Shown here: one piece after another, positions 4,916 to 39,956 of the stretch
How positions within the stretch are numbered: position 1 is the stretch's first letter
How the letters are laid out: every line of letters starts with the position of its first letter
Source of the DNA: Candidatus Bathyarchaeota archaeon
GTDB lineage: Archaea; Thermoproteota; Bathyarchaeia; Bathyarchaeales; Bathyarchaeaceae
Direction of reading: 5' to 3'
NCBI GenBank assembly: GCA_963697165.1
Contig: CAVOMX010000025.1
Span: 32,001 to 96,000 of the forward strand
DNA length: 64,000 bases
The notes under the pieces: generated by a model
Databases searched by the model: none
Seen by the model: only the letters and a program-made list of their open reading frames with translations
What the model was told of the DNA's origin: nothing
Translations under genes and position numbers: made by a program

Positions 4916-5116
4916 TCTGACGTGGAGATGCACCTAATTCCCTCTTTTTTATCACAAAACTCAAAGTAAATCAAGTCCCCATTTTGGTGATTTCATAATA
5001 CGCCCAAAATTGAATGGTTTGTAATGGCACGTATCTAGCATATTTTTTACGGAAAACTCTTCAATCAAGACAATCCAATAATGGGAAGAGGAAAACGCTA
5101 ATGGTGACTGACGGAA

Positions 5117-6370: not shown

Positions 6371-6479
6371 TGCAAAACTGGTAGTTACGATACAATTAAA
6401 AGATTGCAGGTTATCATATAATATCGATTCGGCAAATTGATAGCCCGCAACAGAATTGATTTAATGGAGTTTTCTCTGC

Positions 6480-7085: not shown

Positions 7086-7097
7086 GGAAAAAAGTCA

Positions 7098-7700: not shown

Positions 7701-7716
7701 AGACATATTCGAGTTT

Positions 7717-8949: not shown

Positions 8950-9304
8950 TTCCGTCCATCCAGCTTAGCCTCCCAGTTCTTGAATGTGAACCCTCTGCAG
9001 TGGCATGGAGCGTACAGCTGAGCATGTAGAGTTCTTGACCCATTACTGGATCGGCACTCCCACGTAACATTAACACAGCTTTATGTCGCTCCTATTACAA
9101 AATAGACTTAACAATAGCCCTTAAAGGCTTTTTGTACAATCTTTCAGCACAATATACCTTATAACAAAAACAAAAGAATGAGTGAGAAAAAGGGGAAATT
9201 AGAGGAGTCCCTGAGCACCAACAATTGTTACGTTTATAGTCTCCGTTAACTCAGTCTTCAATGGCCATTAGCAAAAAAAGAAAAAGTGGGTAGATGTACA
9301 GACA

Positions 9305-22991: not shown

Positions 22992-24354
22992 AGATTCAGA
23001 ATTGATAGATTTTGGCAAAAAAGCAGTCAACGTAGCCATAAGAAGAGGCGCTCAGGAAGCTGAAGCATTTTTGAGTAGGGCATCAAGCATTTCGATAGAC
23101 ATTGAAAGGGGACAAATTGTTAGAAGCACCAAAAGTACTGATCAGGGGTTGGGAGTTAGGGCAGTTTATGGGAAAGCAGTTGGATTTTCTTATGTTAATA
23201 CGTTAACGGATAGGGACATAGAAGAGGCTGCGGCAAGAGCGTTACGGGCTGCTAAAGCGAGCAGAGCGGATACGGATTGGGTGAGTTTTGCTGGCTCCAA
23301 AAAGTTTGGTAAAACAAAAGACACCTATGACAAAAGAGCGGCTGATGCGTCTTCGGATGAGTTAGTTGAGATGGCAGCTGACTTGTTGGGTGCGGTTGAG
23401 GCGTATGATAGACGGGTTTTGGCTGTTGATGGTGGAGTTGGAACTTCAGTTTTCCATAAGGTTGTTGTTAACTCTCATGGAGTTGAAGCTTACGACTTGG
23501 GCACTGCAGTCGGATGTTCCATGGAGACGATAGCAAGGGATGGAGGTGATGTGACTCCGGCGTGTTTTGAATTAAATGTAGAAAGAATCTACAAAATAGA
23601 CCCTGATACTGTTGGAACTGAGGCTGCAAGGCAGGCTGTTTCTGCGCTTAAAGCCAAAAAGGTTGAGTCTGGAGTGTTTCCGGTGATTTTTACTCAGGCT
23701 GCGTTTAGTTCTCTGCTATATTATACAGTGATAAACGCTGTCAAAGCTGATTATGTTCAGAGGGAAAGATCTGCGTTTAAGGACAAAATTGGAGAAAAAG
23801 TTGCCTCAGAGCTTGTATCGGTATATGATGATGGACTTCTTGAGGGCGGTCTCTTAACAAGCAAATTTGATGGCGAAGGCGTTCCATGCCAAAAAACGTC
23901 AGTTATCGAAAAAGGTGTCCTGAAGAATTTTTTGTATGACAATTACACGGCAAACAAGGCTGGAGTTGAAAGCACCGGAAACGCATCACGCTCAGGGCTT
24001 GCATCTTACGCTTCCACGCCAGCTCTTGAGGCCAGCAACTTTGTGTTTACAAAAGGAAACAAAACGGCTGAGGAGCTTGTAGCCGAGGTTGATGAGGGTT
24101 TTATAGTGTATGGTGTTCAGGGGGCGCATAGTAGTAATCCGGAGAGTGGAGAGTTTTCTGTTGTGGCTACTCCTGCATGGAAGATTGAAAAAGGGTCTGT
24201 GGCGTATGCTGTGCGTGAGGTTATGTTGACGGGCGTTTTCTTTGATGTTTTAAGGAACGTTTCGGCACTTGGCAGTAACGTCAGGAAAATGGGGCAGCTG
24301 GTTGCGCCATGGATCAGAGTAGAAAACGTCAAAGCCGTTGGAAAGCTGCTTTAG
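22975..24354 (+). CDS. pmbA: PmbA/TldE-family protein
   Basis: FDGEG, STGNA, SGEFS; lacks HExxxH; overlaps tldD. Confidence 0.9.
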   Translation: MVAAPKDSELIDFGKKAVNVAIRRGAQEAEAFLSRASSISIDIERGQIVRSTKSTDQGLGVRAVYGKAVGFSYVNTLTDRDIEEAAARALRAAKASRADTDWVSFAGSKKFGKTKDTYDKRAADASSDELVEMAADLLGAVEAYDRRVLAVDGGVGTSVFHKVVVNSHGVEAYDLGTAVGCSMETIARDGGDVTPACFELNVERIYKIDPDTVGTEAARQAVSALKAKKVESGVFPVIFTQAAFSSLLYYTVINAVKADYVQRERSAFKDKIGEKVASELVSVYDDGLLEGGLLTSKFDGEGVPCQKTSVIEKGVLKNFLYDNYTANKAGVESTGNASRSGLASYASTPALEASNFVFTKGNKTAEELVAEVDEGFIVYGVQGAHSSNPESGEFSVVATPAWKIEKGSVAYAVREVMLTGVFFDVLRNVSALGSNVRKMGQLVAPWIRVENVKAVGKLL

Positions 24355-24439
24355 AAAATGTGAACTTATTAATAGACAAAAAAATATTGCGTCGAAAGTG
24401 TATACAGTGGATACAAAAGCATCAACAGAAAATATAAAA

Positions 24440-25117
24440 CCTGTTAGATAGCATACTTGAATGTAAGCACAGACTATTTTCATCATGAATATAGCCATTT
24501 CAATGTCTGCTATACTGAAGGGGTATCCTTCGGAGTTTAGATAGTCTCGGATTATTTCTAGGGTCCAGATTAACTTTTGATAATTTTTTGTCCATCCAGA
24601 GTCTGAGCAGGGGTCTCCTGGTCTTGCACGTCCGGCTGGGCATTTGATGACTGGTTTTTCAGTAAATTGCAGAGTCTTTAGAGCGTGTCCAACGTTACTA
24701 TCGTAGATACAAAATCTTTCTTGATCGAAGAGTCCAATAATTTTGGATGCTCGAGATATTCCAACACCCTTTATGTTTAAGAGTTCCTCAACTGCATCAG
24801 ATATTTTGCCTTTATCAACAAAATCGAATACCCTTCTAGTAATCTCCAAAACTTTATCTTCGTCACGTAAAGGAAACGGAGGAAAACCGCCCCAAGACAT
24901 GATCATATCAAGAGTTTCAAGACCAACGCCACCAGAATTTTGAATCCGAGACAAAACGATGGCTTGAGAATACTTGGTTACGTTCCACGAGACATGCTTT
25001 AGGCTCTTTATCGTTCCATGAATAGTTCTTTCTACCTTCAATAAGACGTGATTTGTTTTCTTTGACCCAATCTAAAATAACTTGTCCGTATTTTCTTAAA
25101 AATAGGTCTTTATCCAT
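24440..25117 (-). CDS. Hypothetical HhH-containing protein (DNA glycosylase-like fold), frameshifted; 3' end uncertain
   Basis: ORFs 24917-25117 and 24250-25041 join. IMSWGG, LLNIKGVGISRASKI (HhH), IYDS, ADIEMAIF. Confidence 0.6.
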
Positions 25118-25157: not shown

Positions 25158-25245
25158 TGGCGCGGGGTGCGGGATTTGAACCCGCGTGGCCCTACGGACC
25201 ACAGACTTAGCAGGCCTGCTCCCTACCAGGCTAGGAGAACCCCGC
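25158..25245 (-). tRNA. tRNA-Ser(GCT), CCA encoded
   Basis: GCGGGGT...ACCCCGC G CCA acceptor; CAGGC-CT-GCT-AA-GTCTG anticodon arm; long variable arm; GGTTCAAATCC. Confidence 0.95.
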
Positions 25246-26110
25246 AAAGGTCACTCTACTCCAATTTTCTCTAGTTCAAGACTCGGGAGTTTACCTTCCT
25301 ACAATTATACTCAGCATCTATTTTTGTCTTTTTGTGGGTTGACTACGCTCAAAAGGTAAAGCAACAAAAAAGACTTGTATCTTATATCATGTAATTCATA
25401 ATTTTTTGGAACAAGTTAATGCGCCCGCTAGAGTTTTTTTTCATTTCGTATCCCAATAAATTCTCACGAATAATTTGGGTTTGGAATTTGAGTAAATGGC
25501 AAAATATGGGAAACCAATTTAGAAACTCGTTTTGAATGCAGCTCACAAATTAAATAAGGAAATATTTAGATGTTAAAAAAAGTGGTCGGGATCAAACCTT
25601 GCGCGTGCGTTTATGACTAATACGATATTAGAGGAAGAGTAATTTTTTGTTTTAAATTATTAGCTATTATTGTGTATTCGATATGAATGTATATTGTGGG
25701 ATCTTTGGAATTGGGTTTAGCCTCTATTTTAGCATGAATATTATCAATCCGTTTTTCCCATGTACTAAGAGATTTTTCTATGAGAAGTGAAAATTTTTAC
25801 CAATTCTGGCTCGTTTCGAATATAATAGATGTTAGATAGACATGTACGGGAGAGTCGAGGTAAGGGCTACGTAATCCTAAAATGAGTTGGATAGAATCAA
25901 TTATGTTTTTATAGTGTGCATTAAATCCTCCATCAACTTCATACGTTCTTCCAGGGAAATCGAGTCTTTCTCTGTAGGAGAGAACGGATAAACGAGAGGA
26001 AGAACAAAGGAGAAAATACGTAGACACGCGCGGATTGCCATTATGCGTTAGTCTTATTCTAGTTATTTTCCAAGTCCAACTTCGATTCTTATAAGAGTTC
26101 CATGATTAAA

Positions 26111-29100
26111 CTAATAATCACGTATCTTTGTCAATAATCGTGCTTTTAATTCATTTTTTTCATATCCTCTAATTTCCAATGTGAGAATTCCTTTGGAATG
26201 AGTTTCTTTCGGCATCTTTATTTTAATTTCTTTTGACTCATTTTGAACATCTACAGATTCAATTGGTCTATTTTCAATGAAAAAGTCAAGGCGTGATAGA
26301 TTTTCAGTGGTAACTACACCAATGATACTATAATTAACAATTTTCTTAAATTCAAAAGAAATTTCATGAACTAGCTTAGACGAAAGTATCTCTCCAGCTT
26401 TGTTTATTAAATCTTTATTACCGTTCAACAAATCGTCATCAGTCATTTGATAAAAAACATCTGGAGTAACTCCGAAATCTTCCAATGGAATAGTTGAATT
26501 TTTTCCAACTCTTAGCATCCTTCTTGCAGCAACTGTCATATTTGCCCCTTTGGGTAGAGAAAAGAATTGGGAGCTTGATGAGTTCGGAGATGTCTTTCCA
26601 GAATCTTTCATTAAGAGAAGAAGTAGATCATGACTCCACACATTTGCTCCTCCGGCTCCTGTATTTTTGTTTACCCCAATTATTGTCCCAATATTGTGAT
26701 CTTTGAATCCAGCCGCAAACATATCAGCCGCACTGTAAGTTAATCCATTCGTGATAAGAACTACAGGACCATAATATTTTTGACCAATATTATTACATGA
26801 GGTGAGAGACGTAATCGGAAATCCTCTGGAGTATGTAGCGCCCGTTTCTATAGCTTGATGTATCGAATCTTTCCAAGGTTTCAAATCGAAATCATCCCAT
26901 AGGTTTGAGGGGCTATTCTTTTCACATATCTCGAGCATTAATCTTGTATTAAGAAATTGAACCTTCTCTGGATTAATGGTATTAGGAGTCAATGTTTGTA
27001 ATAACCGTTCAGCAGCCATTATCAGACCTCCACCATTATCACGAATATCAATAATAAGCCCCTTTTTTGGAAGTGAAGAAAGTAGCTGGATAAACTCTTT
27101 TACGAATTTTTCACTATCATCTACTTTAAAGGTAAATATTCTTATATATGCAAAATCCCCAGCATCAGTTTTCGCCTTTTTGGCTCGGAATACCGATGGC
27201 ATGTCCGTTGGGATTTCTCCTCCTCTTACTGGAGCCCGATCAATATTCTTTTGCGCAATGTTCCTTTCAAGTTTAACAGCGTCTGGAGCGATCATCAACT
27301 TTTTTACTTCTTGAATCGCAAATGAGTGAAGATCCAGACCAAGCGCGGTTGCTTCGCCAACATTAGACTTAGGAGTTGTTGTAATGAATGCTGTTGGAGG
27401 CGCGAATACAAGCCATTTTTGGATTAATTGAAATTCTTTTTCATTAGAGCGATAATTGAAAGTTACCCATTCTTCATCTGGAGGAAATGAATTAATTAAT
27501 GGACGAATAGTTAGAGCATTGATTCCCCTTGCTCTTCGTGCAGCAGGATTACCTCCTCCTTGTTTTTCAGAATTTAATTCAATTGCACGTTTGATTGGAA
27601 TTCCATTCCAATGAGTGATTTCGACACCTTTTTTAAACGTCTTTGGACCGAATCCTTCCATTTTGTAAGAAACGATATATTTTGGATTTTTTTCTCCCGA
27701 ATTATCTTTTATGAAACATTCCTCAATAATGAATGGCATGAAGGCAATTTTTCCCTTAAATGGATGGGGCAGAAGGTAATTTGTATGAAGATCTCTGGTA
27801 GATTTAAAAATATCAATCATTTCTTTATGGAATTCAATTTCACAAGGTAATTCTTCTATTGTTGTCCTTTCAAGCTTGTATTGCAATAATTTTAAGCGTT
27901 GTATGGGATCAATTGCATACATCGCTTTTTTATGAGGTAGATGAACATAAACTTGTTCAAGTAGAACAAGTGCTTGATTAACTATATCTAGACGTTCGGA
28001 GCACTTCAAATATCCTTCTGAACTTAAGAAGGTAGATAATTCAGAGGTGGTATCAAAAAGTTCTTCTTGATATTCATCTTTGAAAGTAATGCTTTCAGGA
28101 AGAATGGGTTTTACTCCGTATATTGAGGGTAACCTTTTTCTTAGAAAGTCGGGGAGATTTACTTGATTTGCAATTTTTTTGAAATATTGTTTATCATCGA
28201 CAACTGCCAAAGGATCAAGTTCTACTACTACATCTTTTAAAAGTGTTGGATAATCTACTGCTTCATAAAAACTTGGAAAACCAGTTTCATTTCCTTCATA
28301 AGGTATATGTGGCCTAATGAATTCGGTTGCTAGTTCATCTTGTTCCAATGATAAAAACCAATAAGGTTTCATCGTTAAGCCTGATGTTGCGCGATTCCAT
28401 CCAGAATCAGGTTGTTCAAGATCAGTAGCCAATTCACCTAATCGTGATAATCCGTCTTGAAGGCGATCGACGGCTTCACTCAATTTTAAAGTTAAAGAGA
28501 TTGGATTGTTATTTTTAGTTTCAAGGTTTAATAATCGAAAAGAATTTTTAATCTTAAGAATTTCGGTATTTAACTTAAAATTATCCATTAGCCGTTTTTG
28601 ACCATATCGAGGAATACCATCTATTACCACAAAAGTAATTGAAGTTTCTCGTGCATCTATAAGTCCTTGATATGGTGGCCCTTTCTGTCCATTGATTACA
28701 ACCAAATCTGCAATTTTTCCCTTTTCTATTGTTCCAATATGTTTATCCCACTTCAGAATTTTTGCAGCATTTCGTGTAACCATTGAAACTAATTCTTTTT
28801 TTGTGAAAGGTTCATCTAATTCATTGTTGATTAAGTGAGCTATTTTCAATTCACATAAAAGATTCTTGCTTCCTGTCGGAGACCAATCTGAACCTAAAGC
28901 GATGAGTAACCCGGAGTCTTTCGCACATCTTATCCTAGCAGTTTGTCCATATAGTAAATAGTTACTCAATGGAGACCATACTATGGAAGCTTCATATTTC
29001 TTCAGTATATCAAAATCTTCAGCTTCAAGTGCTACGCAATGAATTCCAGACAATGCATCTGTAATTGCCCACTTTTCCTCAGAGATCTGAAGAGCAAAAA

Positions 29101-29768
29101 AATGAGCCCGCGATCTTTCATCCACACCTTCACTAAGATGCAACAGCTTGCATCCCTTACTTTCTTCTAGTTGATCCAAGAAAGTTTCTGCTTCTCTTGC
29201 TGCTACATCAGCAATTCTTGTACCTGCATTTGGTAAATCTTCATTATCAGTGGCTTCAACATTACGTACTAACCCTTTAAATCTGGTCTTAGTTCCTGCT
29301 ACCGCATCTGCAAGCGTTATCCCCTGAGAAGTTGTTACACCTGAAATAAGACATTTACATTCAACATATCTAATAATTGCTTCAATATATTTAATTGACC
29401 TTCCCAGCACATACATAGGTCCTCTAATTAATCGCGTTTTATCGCGATGACCTTGCCACTGCCCACGGTTCTTGAATGTTTTAGGAACATTCCATAGTGG
29501 TAAAATGTTATAACATAAATGATTGTGAAGTTCAATTAATCCAGGATAAATTGTACCACCTGTACGAATTACCTGGATTTCTTCGAATCCTTGAGGAGGA
29601 GTTTCGTTTGAAGGTTTTACATCCACAATTTTTTCTTTTTCAATGTATATTGTCCCTTTGTCTAATACTTCAAAATCATCATTCATCGTGACGATTTTTC
29701 CTTGAATTGCATATTTCGGTTTGTTTTGTAAGTCGATTTTATTTTTTGGCGAATTGTTTTCCCCCCAT
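26111..29768 (-). CDS. Amidohydrolase (deaminase-like) fused to CPAF-like S41 serine peptidase, ~1200 aa
   Basis: PGLIELHNH, LHLSEG, IHCVAL, LGSDW (amidohydrolase). DLHTNY, IDIRDNGGG, YSAADMF, TGAGG, LEDFGV (S41). Frame is open upstream of 29686 (KYAIQGKIVTM); ATG at 29768 is displaced by one base in a G-run. Confidence 0.85.
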
Positions 29769-29908
29769 TATTTTTTTAAAACGAATTCTATTACAGTTAC
29801 TTCATGTTTTTTAAAAACTATAAAATTTTCCCTAGTTATGGTTAATCCGCTACTCTTGAATACCTAAATCTTGTAATTAAATTTAAAAATAACTTACCTG
29901 AAATTACT

Positions 29909-30859
29909 ATGGGGGATAATATGGGTTCTTCTTTTAAAAAATTATTAATAAATAAATACCTGAGTAAATCTATTGACGAAATTTTAAATTCATCATCAGC
30001 GGCTCTCCGAGGACTTAGTGAGACTGACGCCAGCGAGTTAGAAAATTCAATCGACATCACTACTATAAGGGATATGGCGAATAACGAATTTTTTATTCAT
30101 GCAAAGGCTTTACTTTCGGCATCTGGTACACCCAACTACGATCCGGGTCCTCCACCAGATTGGACTGATTTCTTTGAATCCGTACCTAATTACATGTCCC
30201 ATTGGCCAAAAAGAATTCGATGGGAATTCGGACCAATTTTTTACAGAGGAAGACTTGATGGTACTGCAAGAGTAATTGTGATTGGTCAAGATCCGTCCAC
30301 TGATGAAGCACTTGCGCGTCGTGTTTTTGTTGGAGGTTCAGGACAACGCGTTCAAGGGCTCCTTAAAAAACTAGGTATCAGTTCTTCTTACATTATGATT
30401 AACACATTCGTATTTAGCATCTACGGACAATTTGATGCTGAAATGAAGACTATTTCCAAGAATTCTCTAGTTTTGAATTACAGAAATGAATATTTGGACA
30501 GACTAATCGAACAAAATAACATCGAAGCAATCATCGCTATTGGTGCAGCAGCTCGTCACGCCATTGAGAATTGGTCTATCCCACAAGGATTGCACGTTTC
30601 AAATTTAGTCCATCCCTCAGCACCACCAAACATGGTAACTGCCGATTGGAACAAAGATCTCTCAATTTTGCTTAATAAAATTGAACCAGACTTAAACGAA
30701 GTTCAAGATAATAGACCCTATGGTCAAAATTGGGCACCCGGAGACCGGGTCCCAATTCCTAGAAGAGATTTACCGTTTGGAATACCTGAATTCTTAGGTA
30801 CTGGTGGGACTAGAAGTCGTAGAGACACTCCAAAAAAAATTGTTTGGGAAGCACCATAA
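29909..30859 (+). CDS. Uracil-DNA glycosylase superfamily protein with N-terminal helical extension
   Basis: IGQDP (motif A), FVGGSG, INTF, LVHPSA (motif B); ~75-aa N-terminal domain ALRGLSETDA...ITTIRDMANN. Confidence 0.8.
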   Translation: MGDNMGSSFKKLLINKYLSKSIDEILNSSSAALRGLSETDASELENSIDITTIRDMANNEFFIHAKALLSASGTPNYDPGPPPDWTDFFESVPNYMSHWPKRIRWEFGPIFYRGRLDGTARVIVIGQDPSTDEALARRVFVGGSGQRVQGLLKKLGISSSYIMINTFVFSIYGQFDAEMKTISKNSLVLNYRNEYLDRLIEQNNIEAIIAIGAAARHAIENWSIPQGLHVSNLVHPSAPPNMVTADWNKDLSILLNKIEPDLNEVQDNRPYGQNWAPGDRVPIPRRDLPFGIPEFLGTGGTRSRRDTPKKIVWEAP

Positions 30860-30872
30860 AATCAATTATTTA

Positions 30873-31012
30873 ACAAAGGTAACTATAACCAGGCTAGGAG
30901 AACCCCGCAAAGGTCACTCTACTCCGATTTTCTCTATTTCTCAGACTCGAGAGTTTACCTTTTTACCACTATGCTCATCATCTATTTTTGTCTTTTGTGG
31001 ATTGACAAAGCT
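30873..31012. repeat. Internal attP-like junction (P arm + core + P' arm)
   Basis: Core at 30888-30909. The following ~105 bp match 25246-25349 (about 15 differences by hand alignment). The preceding ACAAAGGTAACTATAACC matches ACAAACGTAACTCTACC at 39625-39641. Confidence 0.88.
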
Positions 31013-31068
31013 AAAGATTATGCATAGATGTGCGAGAATAGATTTTTCGGGGGCAATTTATAAACAAC

Positions 31069-31250
31069 TTAAATTACCTCAAGAGCTCCATCGTTTATTG
31101 AGACACAAGATGGGGTGAGCTTCACACTTGCTGCACCATTACTCAATTCAATGTTACCTATATTCATAATGATCTTCAAGCCAGTTACGCTTTCAATAGT
31201 GATTTCACCTGTACCCAGTATGGCTTTGATTGTTATTTTGGCAAAATTTG
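31069..31250 (-). pseudogene. C-terminal remnant of a VgrG/gp5-like baseplate spike gene
   Basis: TGEITIES..G.KI.M....IELSNGAASVKLTPSCVSINDGALEVI* beta-helix-like tail; no N-terminal OB-fold domain. Confidence 0.6.
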
Positions 31251-31299
31251 TTTTGATATGATGCACACTAATAAATGAGAGGGATAGCAAAGATTCAGT

Positions 31300-32868
31300 C
31301 TAATTACCAGCTATCTGTTGGATCTTTATTATAATAAATTCCGCTGGTTTCAGAGGTGCAAATCCTATGATGATATTAACAATACCTCGATCGATGTCAT
31401 ATTGTGTAGTAGTCTCTTTATCGCATTTCACAAAATATGCTTCTTTGGGGGCGGTACCTTGAAATGCACCTTGTATAAACATTTCGTGCATAAACTTACC
31501 TACATTAAGACGAATTTGTGACCAGAGCGGTTCATCATTCGGTTCAAACACAACCCACTGAGTTCCTCGATAAAGGCTTTCTTCGATATAAAGGGCCACT
31601 CGACGAACAGAGAGGTATTTCCATTGGTCAGCCAGTCTATCTGCTCCTCTCATTGTGCGTGCACCCCAAACTACTGGTCCGATTACAGGCATGATTCGCA
31701 GACAGTTGATGCCTAACTGATTTAACTTACCGTTTTCTTTATCTGTCAATTGGTTACTTAACCCGGATATTCCTATCAAGGTTGCTTTATCACCCGCCGG
31801 AGATTTCCAGACACCACGTTCAATATCCGTTCGTGTAATCACACCTGCAACCGCACCGCAGGGCACAAAATCCCGAATTATATTATTACTTTCAGGATCG
31901 TTTGCTTTGATTCGAGGGAAATATATTGCAGCGTTTTTGTGTCTTTTTGGTTGGAAACCTGGACTATCTATTCCAATATTAGGATCCATTGGTTTAGCTT
32001 TAGTGTTCCATGATGTTGGTGGGTCAACAATGAGTATTGCGCGTCGTTTTTCACAATAATCTAGAGCTTTTGAATATACAGCCCCTGAAGGAGTCTCGTC
32101 CTCTTGATATGGGGGAATACAGAGTAGGTTGAAATCAACATCATCCAAAGCATAGATACCCGTCCTATCGTTGAGGTTGCCAATAATGTTGGAATCTTCG
32201 ATGGGGTCTCCATCGCTAGCTGACTCTAGCACCAAAGAAATTGTGTTTGGTAGTTCAGTATTATCTTTAGTTGTGGCTTCTGGAGGTCTTTCGTTCGGTA
32301 CATCTCCTAGTACACGAATTAGATTTGACTCATTTTGCAAAATATTTTTGATAAATCTTGGGCTATCGATTTTAACACTAAGATTATGAAAGTTTTCACT
32401 TGTTAGAGTTTTTTTATCATCAATTGTAAGATTGAAAATGGTTTCTTCTTTGTCTAGGTTGTCAGTGTCTATATTGTGGTCAATTGTTATTTCAAGACGT
32501 TTGCCCCACTCGCCGGGGTTAGCTGCTTCAAACTCTAAATTTGAACCTTTAATCGTGAACGTGGCTTTTCCGTTTATTTTATCTCCATTAATGCTCGTCT
32601 CAGGGTTATAGACTCGAACGATTATTGCTTGATTACCTCCGTTCTGGAAGTAATGATAAAGTGCATAACTCATGTTGCTTTTTTTCCATAGTCCACCGAA
32701 GGAACGTGTGTAATCCGCAAAACTGAAAACTCGTTTTGCCTGGTTCACTTCTCCCATTGAAGCGCGTCCAATAAAAGCTGCTATTGACGAACTAACACCC
32801 TTTATAGTTCTAATTGCAGTGGGAATTTCTTCTATGTAAACTCCAGGATATGTAATTTGGATTGGCAT
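31300..32868 (-). CDS. Contractile tail sheath protein (eCIS Afp2/3/4-like)
   Basis: TYPGVYIEE, AAFIGRA, YFQNGG, PCGAVAG..RTD..RGVWKSPAG, WGART, FEPN, GFAPLKPAEF. Confidence 0.93.
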   Translation of the reverse strand: MPIQITYPGVYIEEIPTAIRTIKGVSSSIAAFIGRASMGEVNQAKRVFSFADYTRSFGGLWKKSNMSYALYHYFQNGGNQAIIVRVYNPETSINGDKINGKATFTIKGSNLEFEAANPGEWGKRLEITIDHNIDTDNLDKEETIFNLTIDDKKTLTSENFHNLSVKIDSPRFIKNILQNESNLIRVLGDVPNERPPEATTKDNTELPNTISLVLESASDGDPIEDSNIIGNLNDRTGIYALDDVDFNLLCIPPYQEDETPSGAVYSKALDYCEKRRAILIVDPPTSWNTKAKPMDPNIGIDSPGFQPKRHKNAAIYFPRIKANDPESNNIIRDFVPCGAVAGVITRTDIERGVWKSPAGDKATLIGISGLSNQLTDKENGKLNQLGINCLRIMPVIGPVVWGARTMRGADRLADQWKYLSVRRVALYIEESLYRGTQWVVFEPNDEPLWSQIRLNVGKFMHEMFIQGAFQGTAPKEAYFVKCDKETTTQYDIDRGIVNIIIGFAPLKPAEFIIIKIQQIAGN

Positions 32869-32965
32869 CGTATAGCATCCCCCTAATTAGATAATAATAT
32901 CGCAGGGGGTCATTAAAATTGTTTAAGAAAATTTTGATCTGAAATATTTTAAAAAAATATGTACC

Positions 32966-33403
32966 TTAAATTAGTCTGGAAATTGCTTCGATAATTCTTT
33001 CTTTATGGTTGTACTGCAGTTCCTCAATAGTTTCTATCAGTTCGTTGATCAGTAACCTATACCCTTTTGTGTTCTGATTTAGTAACCACTCTAAAAATCC
33101 ATGAGACAATAATTGCTTAGCTTGATCAAAATCTTCTACGAAAATGAAAATTGTGTTTCCACGAACTTCTTCTAGGAGTTGCTTACCGTTTCTGTGCCGT
33201 ACAATACCAGGTGACCATTCTAGATTTTGTTCCTTAAAGCGCTTAACATGATAACTAACTGTGCTTTTGCTACATCCAATTAATTCTCCAACTTCAGTTT
33301 GTGTTTTTCCATTTCCAACTAATTCTAAAATCTGTTTAGATATTGGAGTAAACTGGAAGAGTTCGAACTGTTTATTCTTATATCGAACTTTCGAACTCCT
33401 CAA
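32966..33403 (-). CDS. HTH-domain protein (start uncertain)
   Basis: GKTQTEVGELIGCSKSTVSYHVKR HTH. Confidence 0.6.
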   Translation of the reverse strand: MRSSKVRYKNKQFELFQFTPISKQILELVGNGKTQTEVGELIGCSKSTVSYHVKRFKEQNLEWSPGIVRHRNGKQLLEEVRGNTIFIFVEDFDQAKQLLSHGFLEWLLNQNTKGYRLLINELIETIEELQYNHKERIIEAISRLI

Positions 33404-33589
33404 ATCTAATCAATCCCATTTTTTTATTTCAAAAAGAACATGAAATTTTTGATGAAATTATCAGAAGAATTTTGGAAATATGGCTAAGCTTAGCCCAATT
33501 ACAAATCGTTTATTATTTGTTTTACTCATGATAAAGATGCAGGTGTTCTATGTTGAGTGATTACTCTAATAGAAGGAGACTGTTACTTA

Positions 33590-35416
33590 ATGATTGAATT
33601 GTCTCGAGTTGGTGCCCATCTTGACGGCGATAGTGTACGTTTTGGGTTATATCTGCCTGCTCTTGAGAAAGAGGAGGCAATTTCTCTCACGGCGAAGGTT
33701 AGTCATATAAGCGATTTTGCATGGGAGAAAATTTTTGATTGCCCTCTTCAGTATATTGACAACCAAGATGGTTACCCATTCTATGAAGGAAACCTCGATC
33801 TGACAGGCAAAAAAAAGGGCTTATATCGATACCAGTATGAAGTGGGCAAACACGATACTATTTACCCGTGGTGGGCTAGTGATCCTTTCGCAAGACAAAC
33901 GGCTGCAGGACATCGCTCCGCGTTTTTCTATGGCGAGGAGGAGAAGATCACAGTGCCACTTTTTGAAATGCCTTCTGTAGATGAGCTTATTGTCTATGAA
34001 TGTAGCATATCGGAGTACAATCGCACATTTGAAGGATTTATCAGGAATATTGATTACCTTGAAGCTTTGGGCGTTAATGCTGTTGAGTTCATGCCCTTAA
34101 CGAATGTCGTAGAAACTTACCGCTGGGGTTATGTTCCTCTCAACCTCTTTGCACCAGACGAGCGTTTTGGTAGGCCTAATGATTTGAAGAGATTAATTAA
34201 AACGTGCCATGAACTTGGAATAGCCGTAATTATGGATGTAGTTTATAATCATATTAGTGGTCGTTTTGGTTACAATGTAATTTACGATCAAATTGGTATT
34301 GAGAATCCCATAACGGGTGAATTCGGCAAATCGTTCTATGGGCTTTCTGATGTGGACTACTCAAAGCAGTTCGCTCGGGAGTTCATTTTTTCAGTCAATC
34401 GCTATTACCTCGATGAGTTTGGCGTTGATGGTTTCCGATACGATTTTACTCCCGGTTTCTTTGATGGAGTCCAAATTGGAAATGTTGGATTGTCACATCT
34501 TTTATGGTCAACACGTGAATACGCAAAATCCATTGGGCGTCCCAATATTATTCAATGCATTGAGCATCTAGAGAAGTGCATCATTCAAGGCACCGAATTT
34601 GAACCGGTTGATGTTTTCAATAAAACATACGCTAACGCGTGTTGGTATGAAGACCTAAGATCAAGAATAGAAAATCAATTCGCAAAAGGTAATCTTGATG
34701 AAAGTCTAATTCGACTTCTAGATCTTGATGCACGCGGTTACCAGTTGAATTATGAAAGCGAAGAAGAATTAGTTAAATCACCTTTTGTGTACCTCGAAAC
34801 CCACGATCACAGCAGACTCATAAGTTACTTTCCCGCTCGTGCCCTACAGAAAGATTATTTCGGTGAAAACCAGGGTGATCGTTATGCGAGTTATTATTTA
34901 ACTCAGCCCTACGTTATTGCTCTTTTCACGGGCCCGGGTACTCCTATGATATATAATGGACAAGAGTTCGGAGAAAACTATATTGTGCCAGAGTCTGGAA
35001 TGGATCGCGTTCTGAATTTCCGTTTTCTTCGCTGGGAAAACACGGAAGATCGACCAGGTCGGACGCTACTTCGTTTATATCAGCAGCTAATCTTGCTCCG
35101 TAAGAAATATCCTTCCCTCCGCAGTAGAGGGCTAAACAGTTTCTATTACTACAACCAATATGATCCACAAACTGGTGAAGTTGGCAATTATCGTCCACCA
35201 AAAGGAGTATATTTCTACAGACGACAATTCGATAACGAAATTGTGCTTGTTGCACTAAACTTTACAAGCCAAGAATTATCAGTGCCCCATCCATTTCCCG
35301 ATGTTGGTACCTGGCGAGATCTCCTCCATGATTCCGAAGTTACTAATACTCCTGACAAACGCTGCCCAAAGGTTAACATACCAAGCAACTATGGTCGTAT
35401 CTACTTATTAGAGTAG
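33590..35416 (+). CDS. GH13 alpha-amylase-family glycoside hydrolase (branching enzyme/trehalohydrolase-like)
   Basis: DPFAR, WGY.P, DVVYNH, DGFRYD (nucleophile), EH, THDH, YNGQEFG. ATG 33590 follows AAGGAG. Confidence 0.9.
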   Translation: MIELSRVGAHLDGDSVRFGLYLPALEKEEAISLTAKVSHISDFAWEKIFDCPLQYIDNQDGYPFYEGNLDLTGKKKGLYRYQYEVGKHDTIYPWWASDPFARQTAAGHRSAFFYGEEEKITVPLFEMPSVDELIVYECSISEYNRTFEGFIRNIDYLEALGVNAVEFMPLTNVVETYRWGYVPLNLFAPDERFGRPNDLKRLIKTCHELGIAVIMDVVYNHISGRFGYNVIYDQIGIENPITGEFGKSFYGLSDVDYSKQFAREFIFSVNRYYLDEFGVDGFRYDFTPGFFDGVQIGNVGLSHLLWSTREYAKSIGRPNIIQCIEHLEKCIIQGTEFEPVDVFNKTYANACWYEDLRSRIENQFAKGNLDESLIRLLDLDARGYQLNYESEEELVKSPFVYLETHDHSRLISYFPARALQKDYFGENQGDRYASYYLTQPYVIALFTGPGTPMIYNGQEFGENYIVPESGMDRVLNFRFLRWENTEDRPGRTLLRLYQQLILLRKKYPSLRSRGLNSFYYYNQYDPQTGEVGNYRPPKGVYFYRRQFDNEIVLVALNFTSQELSVPHPFPDVGTWRDLLHDSEVTNTPDKRCPKVNIPSNYGRIYLLE

Positions 35417-35940
35417 CAACTTATGAAATCCAAAAAAGCATAAAAAATCCAACTTGTCAGTTAAAAAAAATTTTTGGACCGTGTCAGCCAAACATTCTCA
35501 ATAAAAATTATAGCACTGAGATGGTTGCATTCTTCAAACGTGTTGATCCCGCCATAATTCGTGAGATCACAGAGGCGGGAAATGAAAGCAATAATAAGAT
35601 TGAGACATCAAACGCTTATATTAAGACGACTTTCGGTATCGTGCATGTTCGGAGCAATGGAGAACGTGTTCTAGTTGTAACGCATGGGGTAAGCCTGGTC
35701 AAAAAGAGAGCTATGCGTTTAAGGTCGATAAACAAGGCAAAATTACATTCGAAGAAACTAAAGTGATTTGAAAAGAATAACTTGCTGTTTTTCCAGCCCC
35801 AATTTATTCTAAAATCTGTTTGGACATAGGATTTAACCTGAAGAGTCCAAGCGTTCTATCTTTTTCTACTAACTTGAATGTTGCTGCAGGCTCAGTTGAT
35901 AATAATCAATACAAGGTACTGACTTTATAATAAAAGAGGT

Positions 35941-37524
35941 TTAACGAAGCTCTGGACTCAAATTTTTTATTCTTTTATCTATGGCTAATTGTGCGCTAAT
36001 TTCTTGTTGAGTTAAGACTTCTAATGTTTTCCAGAAGTAAAGTATGTCTTTATAGTCATGCTTCCGCATGAAATTTAACGCTATTTCTATTGTTTCTAGT
36101 GCAGAATTATTGTATGAAATTATAGCTTCTTTTACGGATTTGGCGTATTCGTCAAGGTTAAATCTTTCAGGATAAAACTTTCCAATTATTTGAACATCAA
36201 GATATAACATGCGTAACTTGTTTACTAGAGCTAAAGAACCAAAAAATGCTTCGTGGAATGTTTTTGTGAGAAATACTTCCATCAAGTTTACTCTCGGATC
36301 ATTAAATTGGTAAGTTGGATAGTCCAGGGTTCCTTCAAGCCTGCCTTCTCGTTTTAATTGTTCCGCAATCGAAGTGCCTGCATAAGGAAACATTTTAGTA
36401 AAGTGAACCAAAGCCCGACCATTAAGAGTTAAATTCTTCAGAAATTCAAGATCTCCCTCGATAGAATCAAATGTAGTAGTAGGTGTAAGCATCATGAATC
36501 CATAGTCAAACTTCATGTCTGCTTTCTCGAGTAAATCAAGTGAATTGTAAACGTCTTTAACTGCAAAATGCTTATTGCAGGTTTTAAGACCTTGCTCGTT
36601 TCCAGATTCTATTCCTAGGTATACAAACGTAAGACCGACATTCTTTAGTGTTTTTAGACAATCAAGATCCAACTCGTCCACTCTATTTGATATTCGCCAA
36701 AGGATCTTATCGTCTATTTTTCTCCTTTTTAGCTCCGAAGCGAATTCGTTGATCCATTCTTTTTGTACCTTTGTTTTCATTCCCAAATCATCGTCGACAA
36801 ATTTGAAAATCCTAACGTTACTCTTGTAAAGCTGTTCCATTTCTTCCGCAACGTTAGAAGCTGATCGTGACCTTCGCTTTGGTCCAGGTGCATCTAAGTA
36901 AAATTGGCGTATACTACAAAAACTACAATTATAGTAACAACCTCGACTAGCAAGGATTGATGCAGACTCAATACCGCGGTACTTTTGTTTCTTACCGCCT
37001 CTAATAGGGAAAGGTAGGGAATCAAGATTTTCAATAAGTTTTCTTGGTGAGGTGAAGACTACTTCATCGTTTCTTCTAAAGGCAATTCCCTTAATCCCGA
37101 ACCATTTATCAGGATTTGCCAAGTTTTTAAAGAGCTCTAATATAGTAACTTCACCTTCGTGGGTCACCACTGTGTCAAGCTCTGGCATGAGTTGCAATGT
37201 TTTTGTATATTCTATTGTTGGAAAATGACCACCCATGGTAAAATGTGCAGAAATACCGCTTTCTCGAAGGTATTTCAACAGTTCCTTAAATTCAAGGACC
37301 ATAGGTTGAAAAATAAGAGAAAAACCAACCATTTTGGGGTTGGTTTTAAGAATATCTGCTAGAACTTGCTTTTTATCTGACTTTCTGTATGGTACGATCT
37401 TTACTTTTAGTTTATTTGCTTGTAGGTAGGCTGCAATTGATCTGAGGCCAAGATTCTCCTCGTCCTCATATCCAACAAGAGCGATGTCACAGTCTTGAGA
37501 CTTTGCCTCTTTTAAAAGAGATAT
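35941..37524 (-). CDS. Cobalamin-binding radical SAM enzyme (class B methyltransferase-like), ~527 aa
   Basis: Frame is open upstream of the track start through DIALVGYEDEENLGLRSIAAYL to an ATA at 37524. GGHFPT, HEGE, SRGCYYNCSFC, GIESG. Confidence 0.9.
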   Translation of the reverse strand: MSLLKEAKSQDCDIALVGYEDEENLGLRSIAAYLQANKLKVKIVPYRKSDKKQVLADILKTNPKMVGFSLIFQPMVLEFKELLKYLRESGISAHFTMGGHFPTIEYTKTLQLMPELDTVVTHEGEVTILELFKNLANPDKWFGIKGIAFRRNDEVVFTSPRKLIENLDSLPFPIRGGKKQKYRGIESASILASRGCYYNCSFCSIRQFYLDAPGPKRRSRSASNVAEEMEQLYKSNVRIFKFVDDDLGMKTKVQKEWINEFASELKRRKIDDKILWRISNRVDELDLDCLKTLKNVGLTFVYLGIESGNEQGLKTCNKHFAVKDVYNSLDLLEKADMKFDYGFMMLTPTTTFDSIEGDLEFLKNLTLNGRALVHFTKMFPYAGTSIAEQLKREGRLEGTLDYPTYQFNDPRVNLMEVFLTKTFHEAFFGSLALVNKLRMLYLDVQIIGKFYPERFNLDEYAKSVKEAIISYNNSALETIEIALNFMRKHDYKDILYFWKTLEVLTQQEISAQLAIDKRIKNLSPELR

Positions 37525-37531
37525 TTACTTG

Positions 37532-37789
37532 CTATCCCCTTTTGGCCATTATCAATGACTTCATTGTTTCGAGCTTTTCAAGTTCCAATTTCAAATTTTG
37601 CATCTGGAATCTTACGGCGTTGATTTTCTGATCAATTTCTTTTTCTAGTACGACTTTGATCTGATCGGCTGCAAGGTTTTCTAGCCACCGCCTCAAAAGG
37701 TAAGGAGCTGGGTCTGCTACGGGTCCAAGAAAGTCACGGATATTTAAAATTGGTCTATTAATTTCTTCTGCCATTTTAACACCTTCCAT
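37532..37789 (-). CDS. Small protein with GPVADPAP motif and C-terminal coiled coil; candidate radical SAM substrate/precursor
   Basis: 80-85 aa; ends 7 nt before the radical SAM gene; likely start MAEEINR after GGAAGGTG. Confidence 0.75.
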   Translation of the reverse strand: MEGVKMAEEINRPILNIRDFLGPVADPAPYLLRRWLENLAADQIKVVLEKEIDQKINAVRFQMQNLKLELEKLETMKSLIMAKRG

Positions 37790-38268
37790 ATATTGTTAAT
37801 TAATAGTCCATATAAATCTTCCCAGCGTTATCCATTTGCACCGTTATTACTATAAGATAACTTTTCGCTACGGGTGTAAAAGGTCAACTTATAAGCAATC
37901 AGGACTAATTTGCATCCTTCATTTGGCTGGAATGGGCTGATGGAATTTTCCCCAACAAAATGGGAATCTAAATTTTTCAGCCATAAAGCACATTATGCAA
38001 ATTGTGTGACCGCAACCATAAAATGTGCTTGTCCAAGTGGATTTTTCCAGCAAAGATCACATTTAACATATATGATTCCTTCAATCCTTTTCATACTATC
38101 AGCTTTTACTTTTCATAATAATAGAATTCTATGCTTATCGGATCAACTCCAAGTTCCCTGTCACAAACTGGACATTTTCCATCAGTTCTTCTTATCAGAC
38201 GTTAAATGGGAATCATGTCTCTTCATTCATACAAGAGTTTTCCGTAACCATGCTGGAGATCGTAATTA

Positions 38269-39570
38269 CTATTTCTTTACGAGAATCTTTCCGGAAGAAA
38301 GCACGGTTTGGACATCCCACCCTTTTGCTAAGTAGTTTTCCAAATCATATTCATCTATAATCTTTTTAGGCTCTTTGTTGGGATTCTCTCTTAAGCGGTT
38401 ACCTTCAAGACTCAACGTCCTTATTTCGTCAATGGCATCATCAACTGAAGCATATTTTGCTAAAGCCTCTTCAACGCTCTTGATTCTGTCCTCATCGTAG
38501 CCAAATAGCCTAGCTGTATCAAGAAGTTGCTTCTTTCTCAATTCTTCGGAGGAATAATTCTTTTGAGGGAAGAACTCAACCTGAGCATATTTTCTTCTTA
38601 AATCCTCGATCTTAGTCTTATCATAGTAAGTGTCTTGGCTTCCTGGTAAAATATGCCCCATGAGAAATTCTTGATCTTTAGTATCCATTCCACTATTTCT
38701 TAAGGCAGATTCAAAGGCTTTTCTAAGACAGTGAGGAGAAACAAAATTCCATTTCTTAACTCCAACATCTCTTGCAGCACGCTTTACAAGATTTTCAAGT
38801 GTCTTTTTCATAACGGGAGTTTTTCTTCTCAAGTCAGGAACTAAATTTTTGCTAGTGGAAGCAAAGAGAGGTTCATTATCGCCAATATTACCAAAACTTT
38901 TCTTTCTTTTTTCCAAGTATTGGCTTATTGCTTCAACGGTTTCCATAGAAAAAAATGTGTAGTATGTTATGTTCCCTTTGCAGGCGCCATTAACAATTTT
39001 TTTCATTTCAGCATAAACTGGAACATTTAAGATGTCTAGTCCATTTTCAAAATCGTCTTTTACGTCTTGATATAAGATTGCTCTTAAAGTGGAATTTCTG
39101 AGTCCACTTGTATAGAGGGATAAAACTAATGCCTTATTGCGAGTTGACCCAGACGCGTAAGCCATCTTGTAAATTTCGTCAGATGTTGGAATATACTCGT
39201 CACGTTTTCTGTAACGTGAAGGTTGATAATGGCGTTCAACTTCAAGAGCCTTACTTCCTTTTAACCCATTGACTTTGAAGAATGTCTTCAAGTAAGCCAG
39301 AGACACATTCACATATCTAATACTGTATCCTTTGTTGGCTAACGAGTCAACAAAATCTTTCACAAGACTAGAAGCCTTGCTAGGACTTAAAGTTACAAGA
39401 TCGTCTGGACCTTTATCCGCAAAGTCTGATAGCGCTTTTACAGTCTGACAAGCATTCGCTCTCGTATGTTCACTTCTTGTTTTGCGTTGGTAATGACGAA
39501 GCAGACGATTGACACTTTGAAAATTACTGTCCCAACCGTTTATTTGCAAAAAATCTTCCCAGTTGGTCAC
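38269..39570 (-). CDS. Tyrosine recombinase/integrase
   Basis: SGLRNS (R), CKG (K), HCLRK (HxxR), LMGH, DTYY (Y); starts 66 bp from the att repeat. Confidence 0.93.
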   Translation of the reverse strand: MTNWEDFLQINGWDSNFQSVNRLLRHYQRKTRSEHTRANACQTVKALSDFADKGPDDLVTLSPSKASSLVKDFVDSLANKGYSIRYVNVSLAYLKTFFKVNGLKGSKALEVERHYQPSRYRKRDEYIPTSDEIYKMAYASGSTRNKALVLSLYTSGLRNSTLRAILYQDVKDDFENGLDILNVPVYAEMKKIVNGACKGNITYYTFFSMETVEAISQYLEKRKKSFGNIGDNEPLFASTSKNLVPDLRRKTPVMKKTLENLVKRAARDVGVKKWNFVSPHCLRKAFESALRNSGMDTKDQEFLMGHILPGSQDTYYDKTKIEDLRRKYAQVEFFPQKNYSSEELRKKQLLDTARLFGYDEDRIKSVEEALAKYASVDDAIDEIRTLSLEGNRLRENPNKEPKKIIDEYDLENYLAKGWDVQTVLSSGKILVKK

Positions 39571-39754
39571 TGTATCACCAGTAAATACAGGGTTTACTGT
39601 CTAAATAAGTGTTAGGGTAACCTTACAAACGTAACTCTACCAGGCTAGGAGAACCCCGCATAAGATATTTTGTTCAGAACGAAACCTAAAAAAAGTATCT
39701 GTTCAAACAAAACCAAGTTTTTATAAAACCGTTGTATCCATACTGTTGGAAGAT

Positions 39755-39831
39755 GGGCCGGTTGTCTAGTTCGGTAGGATGCAGCCCTTACGCGGCTGAG
39801 GTCGCAGGTTCAAATCCTGCTCGGCCCACCA
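39755..39831 (+). tRNA. tRNA-Val(TAC), CCA encoded
   Basis: GGGCCGG...TCGGCCC A CCA; CAGCC-CT-TAC-GC-GGCTG; TTTATA box about 30 nt upstream. Confidence 0.95.
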
Positions 39832-39956
39832 CTTTTCACCAAATCCTCAAAAGAAGGCAACATAACAATAATATTAGGAGACTAATAACAGATCATTGTT
39901 GAAAACTAGCTTTTTCCAAAAGCAAACCCCACAACCATCCATAAAAGAGGAAAAAC

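What the first reader, a model, noticed from the sequence alone, without database searches (positions are those of the whole stretch)
25223..39660. Tandem integrative array that targets the 5' end of a tRNA, with an integrase-less passenger element
Seen: the att core equals tRNA-Ser positions -1 to ~23 (acceptor 5' strand and D-arm), not the usual 3' half. It occurs three times. The middle copy has the left flank of the right site and a ~85%-identical copy of the ~105-bp arm following the left site, i.e. a P-core-P' junction. Inference: two related elements integrated in tandem. Element 1 (25223-30909, ~5.7 kb) lacks an integrase; element 2 (30888-39660) supplies one. This could act as a cassette-like system that accretes cargo at one site.
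Basis: partly seen in the sequence, partly recalled or inferred. Interest (0 to 1): 0.8.

Follow-up and report, generated by a model that had tools for sequence, protein, structure and literature searches.

The report
Tandem island at tRNA front end
In an uncultured Bathyarchaeia archaeon, two related DNA blocks sit in tandem at the front end of a serine tRNA gene, one with an integrase gene and one without; the one without is likely a stripped-down leftover, and the unusual part is that the integrase is predicted to cut inside the tRNA's D-loop and so would swap promoters with the tRNA.

Summary
Observation confirmed. A core equal to tRNA-Ser(GCT) positions -1 to 23 occurs three times (24, 22, 24 bp) and nowhere else in the genome. 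The middle copy joins an 85%-identical copy of the left arm to a 14-bp stub of the right arm. The empty site (tRNA-Val back-to-back with tRNA-Ser) is present in 17 of 18 same-genus loci. Unit 2 carries an intact tyrosine integrase; unit 1 has no trace of one.

The parts are mostly known. Five-prime targeting occurs in 4% of Islander islands, and CalSub-E1 uses the same 20-bp site. Tandem accretion with integrase-less CIMEs is described in bacteria.

Unit 1's integrase-side arm is damaged (+1 base, fourth box lost), so it looks like a cis-mobilisable relic, not a free cassette.

What looks new: the D-arm is likely the core dyad, a tRNA subsite not listed in Islander. The element carries a conserved ~105-bp arm that must replace the tRNA promoter. 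That arm is found across Bathyarchaeia, mostly without an integrase: none of 15 scorable internal junctions is followed by one. Mobility and promoter function are untested. New variant of a known kind; interest 0.38.

The parts
25158..25245 (-). tRNA-Ser(GCT), the intact target gene and the only Ser(GCT) gene found in this 81%-complete assembly
25223..25246 (-). Left att core (arm-core-tRNA junction) = tRNA positions -1..+23; the D-stem halves flank the 6-bp GCCTGG of the D-loop
25247..25352 (-). Unit-1 upstream arm (P1): box 1 at 25249-25258, conserved motif A at 25319-25332; stands where the native tRNA promoter was
26111..29686 (-). Unit-1 cargo: 1191-aa amidohydrolase + peptidase S41 fusion; relatives found are bacterial
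29909..30859 (+). Unit-1 cargo: uracil-DNA-glycosylase-superfamily protein; ends 28 bp from the middle core, where an integrase would be expected
30873..30887 (-). Stub of unit 1's integrase-side arm (P1'): box 3 (30878-30887) shifted by one extra base, box 4 missing
30888..30909 (-). Middle att core (22 bp)
30910..31015 (-). Unit-2 upstream arm (P2): box 1 at 30912-30921, motif A at 30983-30996; 85% identical to P1
31300..32868 (-). Unit-2 cargo: phage-tail-sheath-family protein, with no other tail genes detected in the island
32966..33403 (-). Unit-2 cargo: HTH protein; its 5' part is repeated at 35786-35859 (74 nt, 76%)
33557..35416 (+). Unit-2 cargo: alpha-amylase-family protein lying between the two HTH repeats; skipped in related contigs
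35941..37332 (-). Unit-2 cargo: B12-binding radical SAM protein
37532..37789 (-). Unit-2 cargo: 85-aa protein, no family hit
38269..39570 (-). Intact 433-aa tyrosine integrase (R158, H280-x-x-R283, H306, Y315/Y316), not split by att, with a ~100-aa C-terminal extension of no known family; starts 66 bp after the right core on the tRNA's strand
39613..39636 (-). Unit-2 integrase-side arm (P2'): box 4 at 39613-39622; box 3 at 39630-39639, overlapping the core end
39637..39660 (-). Right att core (host-core-arm junction; the displaced 5' tRNA fragment)
39661..39754 (-). Native Val/Ser intergenic spacer with the conserved T-run motif at ~39685-39695 (likely the tRNA-Ser promoter), now pointing at the integrase
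39755..39831 (+). tRNA-Val(TAC), the host neighbour of tRNA-Ser at the empty site

Best explanation
This is a tandem island at the 5' end of tRNA-Ser(GCT), likely built by a tyrosine integrase predicted to cut in the tRNA D-loop, and its integrase-less unit is likely a decayed sibling (CIME-like) that would move only together with the integrase-bearing unit. SHOWN: three cores, an empty site in relatives, an intact integrase directly behind the right core, no integrase in unit 1, and a four-box layout (box1-7bp-box2-GCCTGG-box3-7bp-box4) in which box 2 and the host's box 3 are the two halves of the D-stem. SHOWN: identity between the sites stops at position 23, so any crossover lies 5' of the anticodon arm. 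INFERRED: the overlap is the D-loop. INFERRED: each element must bring tRNA nucleotides 1-14 and a promoter on its ~105-bp arm. After integration the arm would drive the tRNA and the host's tRNA promoter would drive the integrase (a promoter swap). INFERRED: two sibling elements integrated one after the other (order not resolved), and a deletion starting ~14 bp past the middle core removed unit 1's box 4 and integrase. The two outer sites are intact, so the whole 14.4-kb block could excise. Unit 1 alone would give a circle with a defective site. INFERRED: once the far site and the integrase are lost, the tRNA depends on the arm, so the arm stays fixed, as seen in three relatives.
For:: repeats, identities and chance rates; empty site in 17 of 18 same-genus loci. 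G023 has an 83%-identical integrase behind the same host-core-arm junction, with different cargo; the four-box layout is shared with G023; box 4's end recurs before the integrase starts in G415 and L092 and is missing at the window's middle site. A distant integrase (28-30%) in G117 flanks a 12.8-kb element whose repeat also ends in the D-loop, at a tRNA-Pro-like gene; the att of CalSub-E1 also ends at GCCTGG; motif A was not in the search pattern, yet 43 of 48 arms carry it within 3 mismatches (shuffled arms 3.9%), mostly ending at -62 to -77. One arm without it (4 records) has a canonical TATA-like run ending at -68; in G059, G172 and G386 the arm precedes tRNA-Ser with tRNA-Val 2.8-8.8 kb away and neither integrase nor far core in between; the CIME/accretion model; integrase-less archaeal elements are attributed to integrase loss.
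Against: No excision, circle or empty-site joint was seen for this island (contigs only). The promoter weight-matrix test did not separate motif A from shuffled arms, and motif A is no better conserved next to tRNAs than at internal junctions (Mann-Whitney p 0.81), so it may be a recombination site rather than a promoter. Integrase-less junctions dominate class-wide (none of 15 scorable ones is followed by an integrase), and some share downstream arms across different cargo. That is more than simple decay obviously predicts. Unit 1's two genes are intact, and it has no integrase pseudogene to prove a loss.
Confidence: 0.6

Rival explanations
1. Unit 1 belongs to a pool of dedicated integrase-less cassettes. 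Each carries the conserved arm plus a minimal right half-site and is excised and inserted on its own by a rare helper integrase (integron-like accretion at the tRNA 5' end).
For: None of 15 internal arm+core junctions with at least 300 bp of downstream sequence has an integrase behind it. Other integrase-less units bounded by cores exist: L088 (2.2 kb, next to the tRNA), L074 (6.1 kb) and L076 (4.9 kb, away from the tRNA). Motif A stays near-perfect in many internal arms. Some downstream arms recur with different cargo (L074/L109/L113; L118/L158/L161). Unit 1 is tRNA-proximal, the place where newcomers usually land.
Against: The window's stub is a damaged copy of the integrase-type arm and matched none of the other integrase-less downstream sequences. 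Unit 1's largest gene is absent from 390 other class genomes. Many internal junctions lie among host-like genes, away from the tRNA, as integration at secondary sites would give. No circles were seen.
Confidence: 0.2
2. There was only one element. Its arm and core were duplicated in place, or it integrated twice as a dimer, and the second copy was then overwritten by unrelated cargo. Unit 1 never travelled as its own element.
For: P1's closest match among the arms compared is P2 (86%; next 77%). Cargo in this family changes through non-att repeats: the amylase module between HTH repeats is skipped in related contigs.
Against: The arms differ at 15% of columns and the units share no other sequence. 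G023's sibling element shows this much divergence between independent elements (82.7% over arm and integrase start).
Confidence: 0.15
3. The tandem is an assembly chimera of two strains, each carrying one unit, joined through the shared core.
For: The genome is a metagenome-type bin, and no laid contig spans a junction.
Against: The exact shared stretches are only 38, 22 and 24 bp, shorter than usual final assembly word lengths (general knowledge). The contig is 182.5 kb. The middle site has its own extra base. The same architecture occurs in an unrelated record (L088).
Confidence: 0.05

Closest known systems
CalSub-E1 of Ca. Caldiarchaeum subterraneum (Krupovic et al. 2019, PMC6563490; passages and supplement rows read)
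   Same: Same target: the first 20 bp of tRNA-Ser(GCT), ending in the D-loop. Intact XerC/D-type integrase starting ~140 bp inside one end, on the same strand. Similar size (7.2 kb).
   Different: Single element with primase/helicase replication genes. The paper notes only '5'-distal' integration in the passages read. No sequence comparison was possible; a profile search of 401 phylum genomes returned no hit I could tie to it.
CIMEs and site-specific accretion of ICEs/IMEs (review PMC5704250, passages read; Pavlovic 2004 and Bellanger 2011 seen only as references there)
   Same: An integrase-less element that keeps att sites, in tandem with an integrase-bearing one, joined by a chimeric internal site; composite excision is expected.
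   Different: Described in bacteria, mostly at gene 3' ends, with conjugation modules. Here it is archaeal, at a 5' end, with no transfer or replication gene found in either unit.
pTN3-like (and other 5'-half) archaeal integrases (review PMC8371274, sections 18 and 24 and passages read)
   Same: attB in the 5' part of a tRNA gene; the recombinant tRNA is expressed from an element promoter and the integrase part from the tRNA promoter.
   Different: pTN3-like integrases are suicidal, with att inside the gene. This integrase is whole, and its att covers only positions 1-23.
Islander tRNA islands (PMC4383910, passages read)
   Same: tRNA plus displaced fragment plus tyrosine integrase; 159 of 3919 islands have a 5' fragment and 125 are tandems.
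   Different: The listed crossover subsites are the anticodon loop, the T loop and the T/acceptor junction; the D loop is not listed. Islander's filters would reject unit 1.
Integrons
   Same: An integrase beside an array of units without integrases.
   Different: Not an integron integrase (TIGR02249 26 bits vs cut-off 265). Units are multi-gene kilobase blocks bounded by tRNA-derived cores; attC-type hairpins were not tested.

Membership tests
tRNA-targeting integrative element (tyrosine recombinase) | Intact tRNA plus displaced tRNA end fragment as direct repeats in the correct orientation | tested here: met
tRNA-targeting integrative element (tyrosine recombinase) | Tyrosine integrase with catalytic residues inside the element (unit 2) | tested here: met
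   PF00589 58.6 bits vs cut-off 27.1; motifs invariant or nearly so in 22 homologs; fold matches XerA
tRNA-targeting integrative element (tyrosine recombinase) | Precise empty site in relatives | tested here: met
   17 of 18 same-genus loci
tRNA-targeting integrative element (tyrosine recombinase) | Excision / circular form | tested here: inconclusive
   No att-spanning joint among the 15 listed of 17; contigs only, mostly from relatives
CIME (cis-mobilizable element), unit 1 | Lacks integration and transfer genes | tested here: met
CIME (cis-mobilizable element), unit 1 | Retains attL and attR | tested here: inconclusive
   tRNA-side site intact; the other side is a damaged stub
CIME (cis-mobilizable element), unit 1 | Derived by decay from an autonomous element | tested here: inconclusive
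   Arm homology to unit 2 and the stub support it; no integrase remnant and no intact parent found
CIME (cis-mobilizable element), unit 1 | Co-excision and co-transfer with the neighbour | not testable with these tools
   needs reads or experiment
ICE / IME | Relaxase, oriT or conjugation genes | tested here: not met
   No such Pfam family among the island's ORFs; oriT not tested
pTN3-like / SSV-type suicidal integrases | att inside the integrase gene, gene split on integration | tested here: not met
   Whole 433-aa ORF starting 66 bp beyond the core; open frame only 443 codons
Integron | IntI-family integrase | tested here: not met
   TIGR02249 26 vs 265 bits
Integron | attC hairpin sites closing single-gene cassettes | not tested
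   Units are multi-gene and bounded by tRNA-derived cores; no folding test run
Host XerA | NF040815 above cut-off | tested here: not met
   78.9 vs 220 bits; a close homolog (E<=1e-100) occurs in only 2 of 60 family genomes
Provirus | Virion gene set | tested here: not met
   Only a lone sheath gene; no integrase relative or arm pattern in viral contigs

The most novel reading that the evidence does not exclude
Bathyarchaeia run a class-wide cassette system at the 5' end of tRNA-Ser(GCT). A rare helper integrase cuts in the D-loop (a fourth tRNA crossover subsite) and shuffles integrase-less multi-gene cassettes. Each cassette carries a promoter-bearing arm that the essential tRNA then depends on, so every insertion holds the tRNA hostage and ratchets foreign genes into the chromosome.
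Probability: 0.2. Interest if true: 0.7.

Novelty: new variant of a known kind. Interest (0 to 1): 0.38.

Why it matters
The tandem and the passenger are known phenomena. The geometry is the useful part. A D-loop crossover would add a subsite to the three listed for tRNA-targeting integrases, and it can be tested directly with one integrase and 60-bp oligos. An intact integrase that swaps promoters with an essential tRNA also suggests a simple ratchet: lose the far site and the host cannot drop the foreign arm. That would explain why several Bathyarchaeia genomes have an element-type arm fixed before tRNA-Ser and a variable gene block between tRNA-Val and tRNA-Ser. It offers one route by which these abundant sediment archaea collect genes with bacterial relatives, in a form that island finders requiring an integrase would miss.

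Tried and rejected
Searches that found nothing:
- Integrase in genome contigs by peptide patterns: 81 candidates, none confirmed. In viral contigs: 18 candidates, none confirmed.
- Arm pattern in viral contigs: 0.
- UDG-like gene in plasmids: no match.
- PADLOC: no convincing defence system, only weak domain-level hits.
- Rfam: only tRNAs in the window.

Sequencing runs: no RNA holder was listed, so there is no expression data. Four runs were laid, all as contigs. None of the 15 listed joints (of 17) crosses an att site. One run has short near-identical pieces on both units but may be the source sample. Relatives cover unit 2 far more than unit 1, which cannot be read as abundance.

Tests that did not decide:
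- Promoter weight matrix from 38 host tRNA upstream regions: arm best scores overlap the shuffled range (null mean 4.3, 95th percentile 7.8), and the native tRNA-Ser motif also scored poorly.
- A guessed third motif downstream of integrase-less junctions fits only 3 of 21 well and was derived from those same sequences; it is absent at the window's middle site.
- GC content (unit 1 35.6%, unit 2 38.0%, flanks 41.5% and 43.3%) does not date the units.
- Structure model of moderate confidence (pLDDT 73, pTM 0.47). The C-terminal extension has only sub-0.9 Atlas leads.

Left open:
- Longer context for five metagenome records could not be searched, so their far ends beyond 10 kb are unknown.
- Zhao & Williams 2002 (PMC139527) is not held; only its reference line was seen, and it may already describe a similar crossover.

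Rejected: suicidal integrase, host XerA, integron integrase, provirus (see membership tests).
Full report
OBSERVATION. The window is G000:C25:32001-96000 of a 1.99-Mb, 81%-complete assembly. Named homologs of the integrase and records carrying the same arm are Bathyarchaeia. tRNA-Ser(GCT) lies at 25158-25245 (-) and tRNA-Val(TAC) at 39755-39831 (+). A core equal to tRNA positions -1..+23 occurs at 25223-25246, 30888-30909 (22 bp) and 39637-39660, and nowhere else in the genome at up to 4 mismatches. The arm beside the left core and the arm beside the middle core agree at 91 of 107 columns. On its other side the middle core shares only ~14 bp with the right site. A 14-mer that close occurs 22 times genome-wide, so the stub is real homology but short. 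Unit 2 encodes an intact 433-aa tyrosine integrase that starts 66 bp beyond the right core on the tRNA's strand. Unit 1 has none: best tblastn E 0.78, best profile E 1.1. Of 18 same-genus tRNA-Ser loci fetched, 17 have tRNA-Val back-to-back and one has a 1.1-kb insert between them.

SITE GEOMETRY. Read on the tRNA strand, a rebuilt attP has four related 10-bp boxes: box1-7bp-box2-GCCTGG-box3-7bp-box4. Box 2 is the 5' half of the D-stem, and in the host site the partner box is the 3' half. The D-arm is therefore the inverted repeat and the D-loop the likely overlap (inference from symmetry and the known core layout of tyrosine recombinases). Identity between sites ends at +23, which excludes the anticodon and T arms. 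The published att of CalSub-E1 ends at the same GCCTGG. In G117 a 28-30%-identical integrase heads a 12.8-kb element whose repeat also ends in the D-loop of a tRNA-Pro-like gene (I called that tRNA by eye, as ARAGORN and Rfam did not). Islander lists the anticodon loop, T loop and T/acceptor junction as crossover subsites, not the D loop. The window's middle site has one extra base at the overlap edge and lacks box 4. The end of box 4 is kept before the integrase starts in G023, G415 and L092.

THE FAMILY. The integrase has 635 relatives at E<=0.001. At E<=1e-30 it occurs in 21 of 401 class genomes, and at E<=1e-100 in 2 of 60 family genomes. G023's copy is 83% identical, sits behind the same host-core-arm junction and carries other cargo. 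In a tree of 29 proteins, G000, G023, G141, G086 and G415 form a clade (100/98); four of these five have a tRNA-5'-type core upstream and G141 has none. A 53%-identical neighbour (G354) uses the 3' end of tRNA-Ile. The fold matches archaeal XerA and other tyrosine recombinases, but the protein is below the XerA and integron cut-offs.

THE ARM. A pattern for box 1 plus the start of the core found 11 genome and 44 metagenome stretches and 10 of 401 class genomes. Screening gave 60 junction hits, 52 distinct: 31 continue into tRNA-Ser and 21 do not. I dropped three of the 21: G023's box 3/4, a bacterial chance hit, and a tRNA with a broken 3' end. Of the 18 left, 15 have at least 300 bp downstream (the window's middle site included), and none of these shows an integrase in the next 1.5 kb. 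One short contig (L092) ends in an integrase-like start, and G415, found through the protein, is also arm-core-arm-integrase. These junctions are not independent: several share downstream sequence, and many lie among host-like genes away from the tRNA, as integration at secondary sites would give. A second motif (A), not part of the search pattern, is present within 3 mismatches in 43 of 48 arms (shuffled arms 3.9%), mostly ending 62-77 nt before the core. One arm lacking it has a canonical TATA-like run at -68. Because the native spacer is moved 14.4 kb away, the arm or read-through from cargo must supply the tRNA's promoter. Whether motif A is that promoter is unresolved: the matrix test was inconclusive, and the motif is as conserved at internal junctions as beside tRNAs (p 0.81). 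In G059, G172 and G386 the arm precedes tRNA-Ser, tRNA-Val lies 7.8, 2.8 and 8.8 kb away, and neither an integrase nor a far core is found between them. Among 14 other arm-tRNA loci with 3.8-19 kb of upstream sequence, none had a full integrase of this family upstream (one had a short 28-residue hit), and two had a second core; elements longer than the fetched flank would be missed.

MECHANISM. Most likely (0.6), two sibling elements integrated in turn, and a deletion beginning just past the middle core removed unit 1's box 4 and integrase. The outer sites are intact, so the composite could excise; unit 1 alone would yield a defective site. Integration would put the integrase under the host tRNA promoter and the tRNA under the arm. 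Loss of the far site would then fix the arm. The order of arrival is not resolved. Rivals are a dedicated cassette pool mobilised in trans (0.2), in-place duplication with cargo turnover (0.15) and misassembly (0.05). Against my reading: integrase-less junctions are the rule, other core-bounded integrase-less units exist (L088, L074, L076), and no integrase remnant proves a loss. For it: the damaged stub, no match of that stub to other integrase-less arms, and unit 1's main gene in none of 390 other class genomes. Its relatives and those of the UDG-like gene are bacterial where named. Laid contigs showed no joint across any att site; they are not evidence either way.

WHAT IS KNOWN. PMC6563490 (passages, supplement rows): 5'-distal integration is rarer but cited five times; CalSub-E1 uses this same site; tyrosine-recombinase elements form arrays. 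PMC8371274 (sections 18 and 24, passages): pTN3-like integrases use the 5' half and drive the tRNA from the integrase promoter; integrase-less elements are put down to loss. PMC5704250 (passages): CIMEs and accretion. PMC4383910 (passages): 159 of 3919 islands have 5' fragments. bioRxiv 10.1101/2020.12.28.424599 (passages): tandem elements and remnants at tRNAs in Prochlorococcus. PMC11529989 (passages): an integrase-less circularising mini-element in Asgard archaea. Seven searches of the held library surfaced no paper on this Bathyarchaeia family or on a D-loop subsite. The library lacks most subscription papers, and Zhao & Williams 2002 could not be read. Earlier AI notes of this scan report integrase-less cassette rows at tRNA-Ser in other Bathyarchaeia, mostly behind the 3' end; I did not test them.

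VERDICT. The feature is real and is a new variant of a known kind. The tandem and the passenger are ordinary. The predicted D-loop crossover, the promoter swap with an intact integrase and the class-wide persistence of the arm are the parts worth testing. Interest 0.38; the cassette-system reading has probability about 0.2 and would deserve 0.7.

Noticed in passing
window 33302-33375 and 35786-35859: A 74-nt, 76% direct repeat (start of the HTH gene) brackets the amylase gene. Related contigs in two runs skip 33277->35787, so the amylase module comes and goes without att sites.
   Followed up: partly
window 31069-32868: Lone phage-tail-sheath gene plus a 73-aa ORF next to the arm that resembles, from recall only, the tail end of a contractile-system spike protein (no NCBIfam hit). 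Looks like a fragment of a contractile injection locus.
   Followed up: partly
window 24250-25041: ORF just beyond the tRNA-Ser 3' end, no family hit, with a 68%-identical paralog on contig C19. Possibly separate cargo on the 3' side of the same tRNA.
   Followed up: no
window 39866-39917: A ~50-bp repeat after tRNA-Val with more than 20 similar copies across the genome.
   Followed up: no
window 37330-37560: The radical SAM reading frame is open ~65 codons upstream of the listed ATG, and related contigs have small insertions at 37502 and 37547. The true start is uncertain or damaged.
   Followed up: no
L076 (G183:C3) 5051-10092: Two 187-bp arm+core copies (88%) far from the tRNA bracket an HD-domain-like gene plus grpE-dnaK-dnaJ-like genes (named by eye); each is followed by a stretch like a tRNA-Ile 3' end. 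A possible route for the archaeal DnaK operon.
   Followed up: partly
L035, L048 (G172:C6, G223:C6); also L046, L036: 34-38%-identical integrases lie directly behind the RNase P RNA gene (Rfam-confirmed for two) and form a clade; a possible rnpB-targeting family.
   Followed up: partly
L052 (G354:C26): A 53%-identical integrase bounds an 18.3-kb element by a 25-bp repeat of the tRNA-Ile 3' end, so close kin switched between 5' and 3' targets.
   Followed up: partly
L056, L057 (G014): A second, divergent tRNA-Ser(GCT) preceded by motif A; at the native locus, a 1.1-kb insert with one ORF between tRNA-Val and the Ser promoter.
   Followed up: no
L138, L140, L147, L148, L149, L141, L150: tRNA-Ser(GCT) in other families is preceded by motif A and/or variant box-1 sequences, suggesting further integrase lineages using the same site.
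   Followed up: no
window 38269-38570 (integrase residues 335-433): C-terminal extension without Pfam hit; Atlas neighbours are ~100-aa archaeal hypothetical proteins (score 0.86, lead only). Could be an arm-binding domain.
   Followed up: partly
genome contigs C12 and C14: tRNA-Val(GAC)/tRNA-Ala(GGC) pairs with near-identical upstream sequence occur twice; either a duplication or bin redundancy.
   Followed up: no
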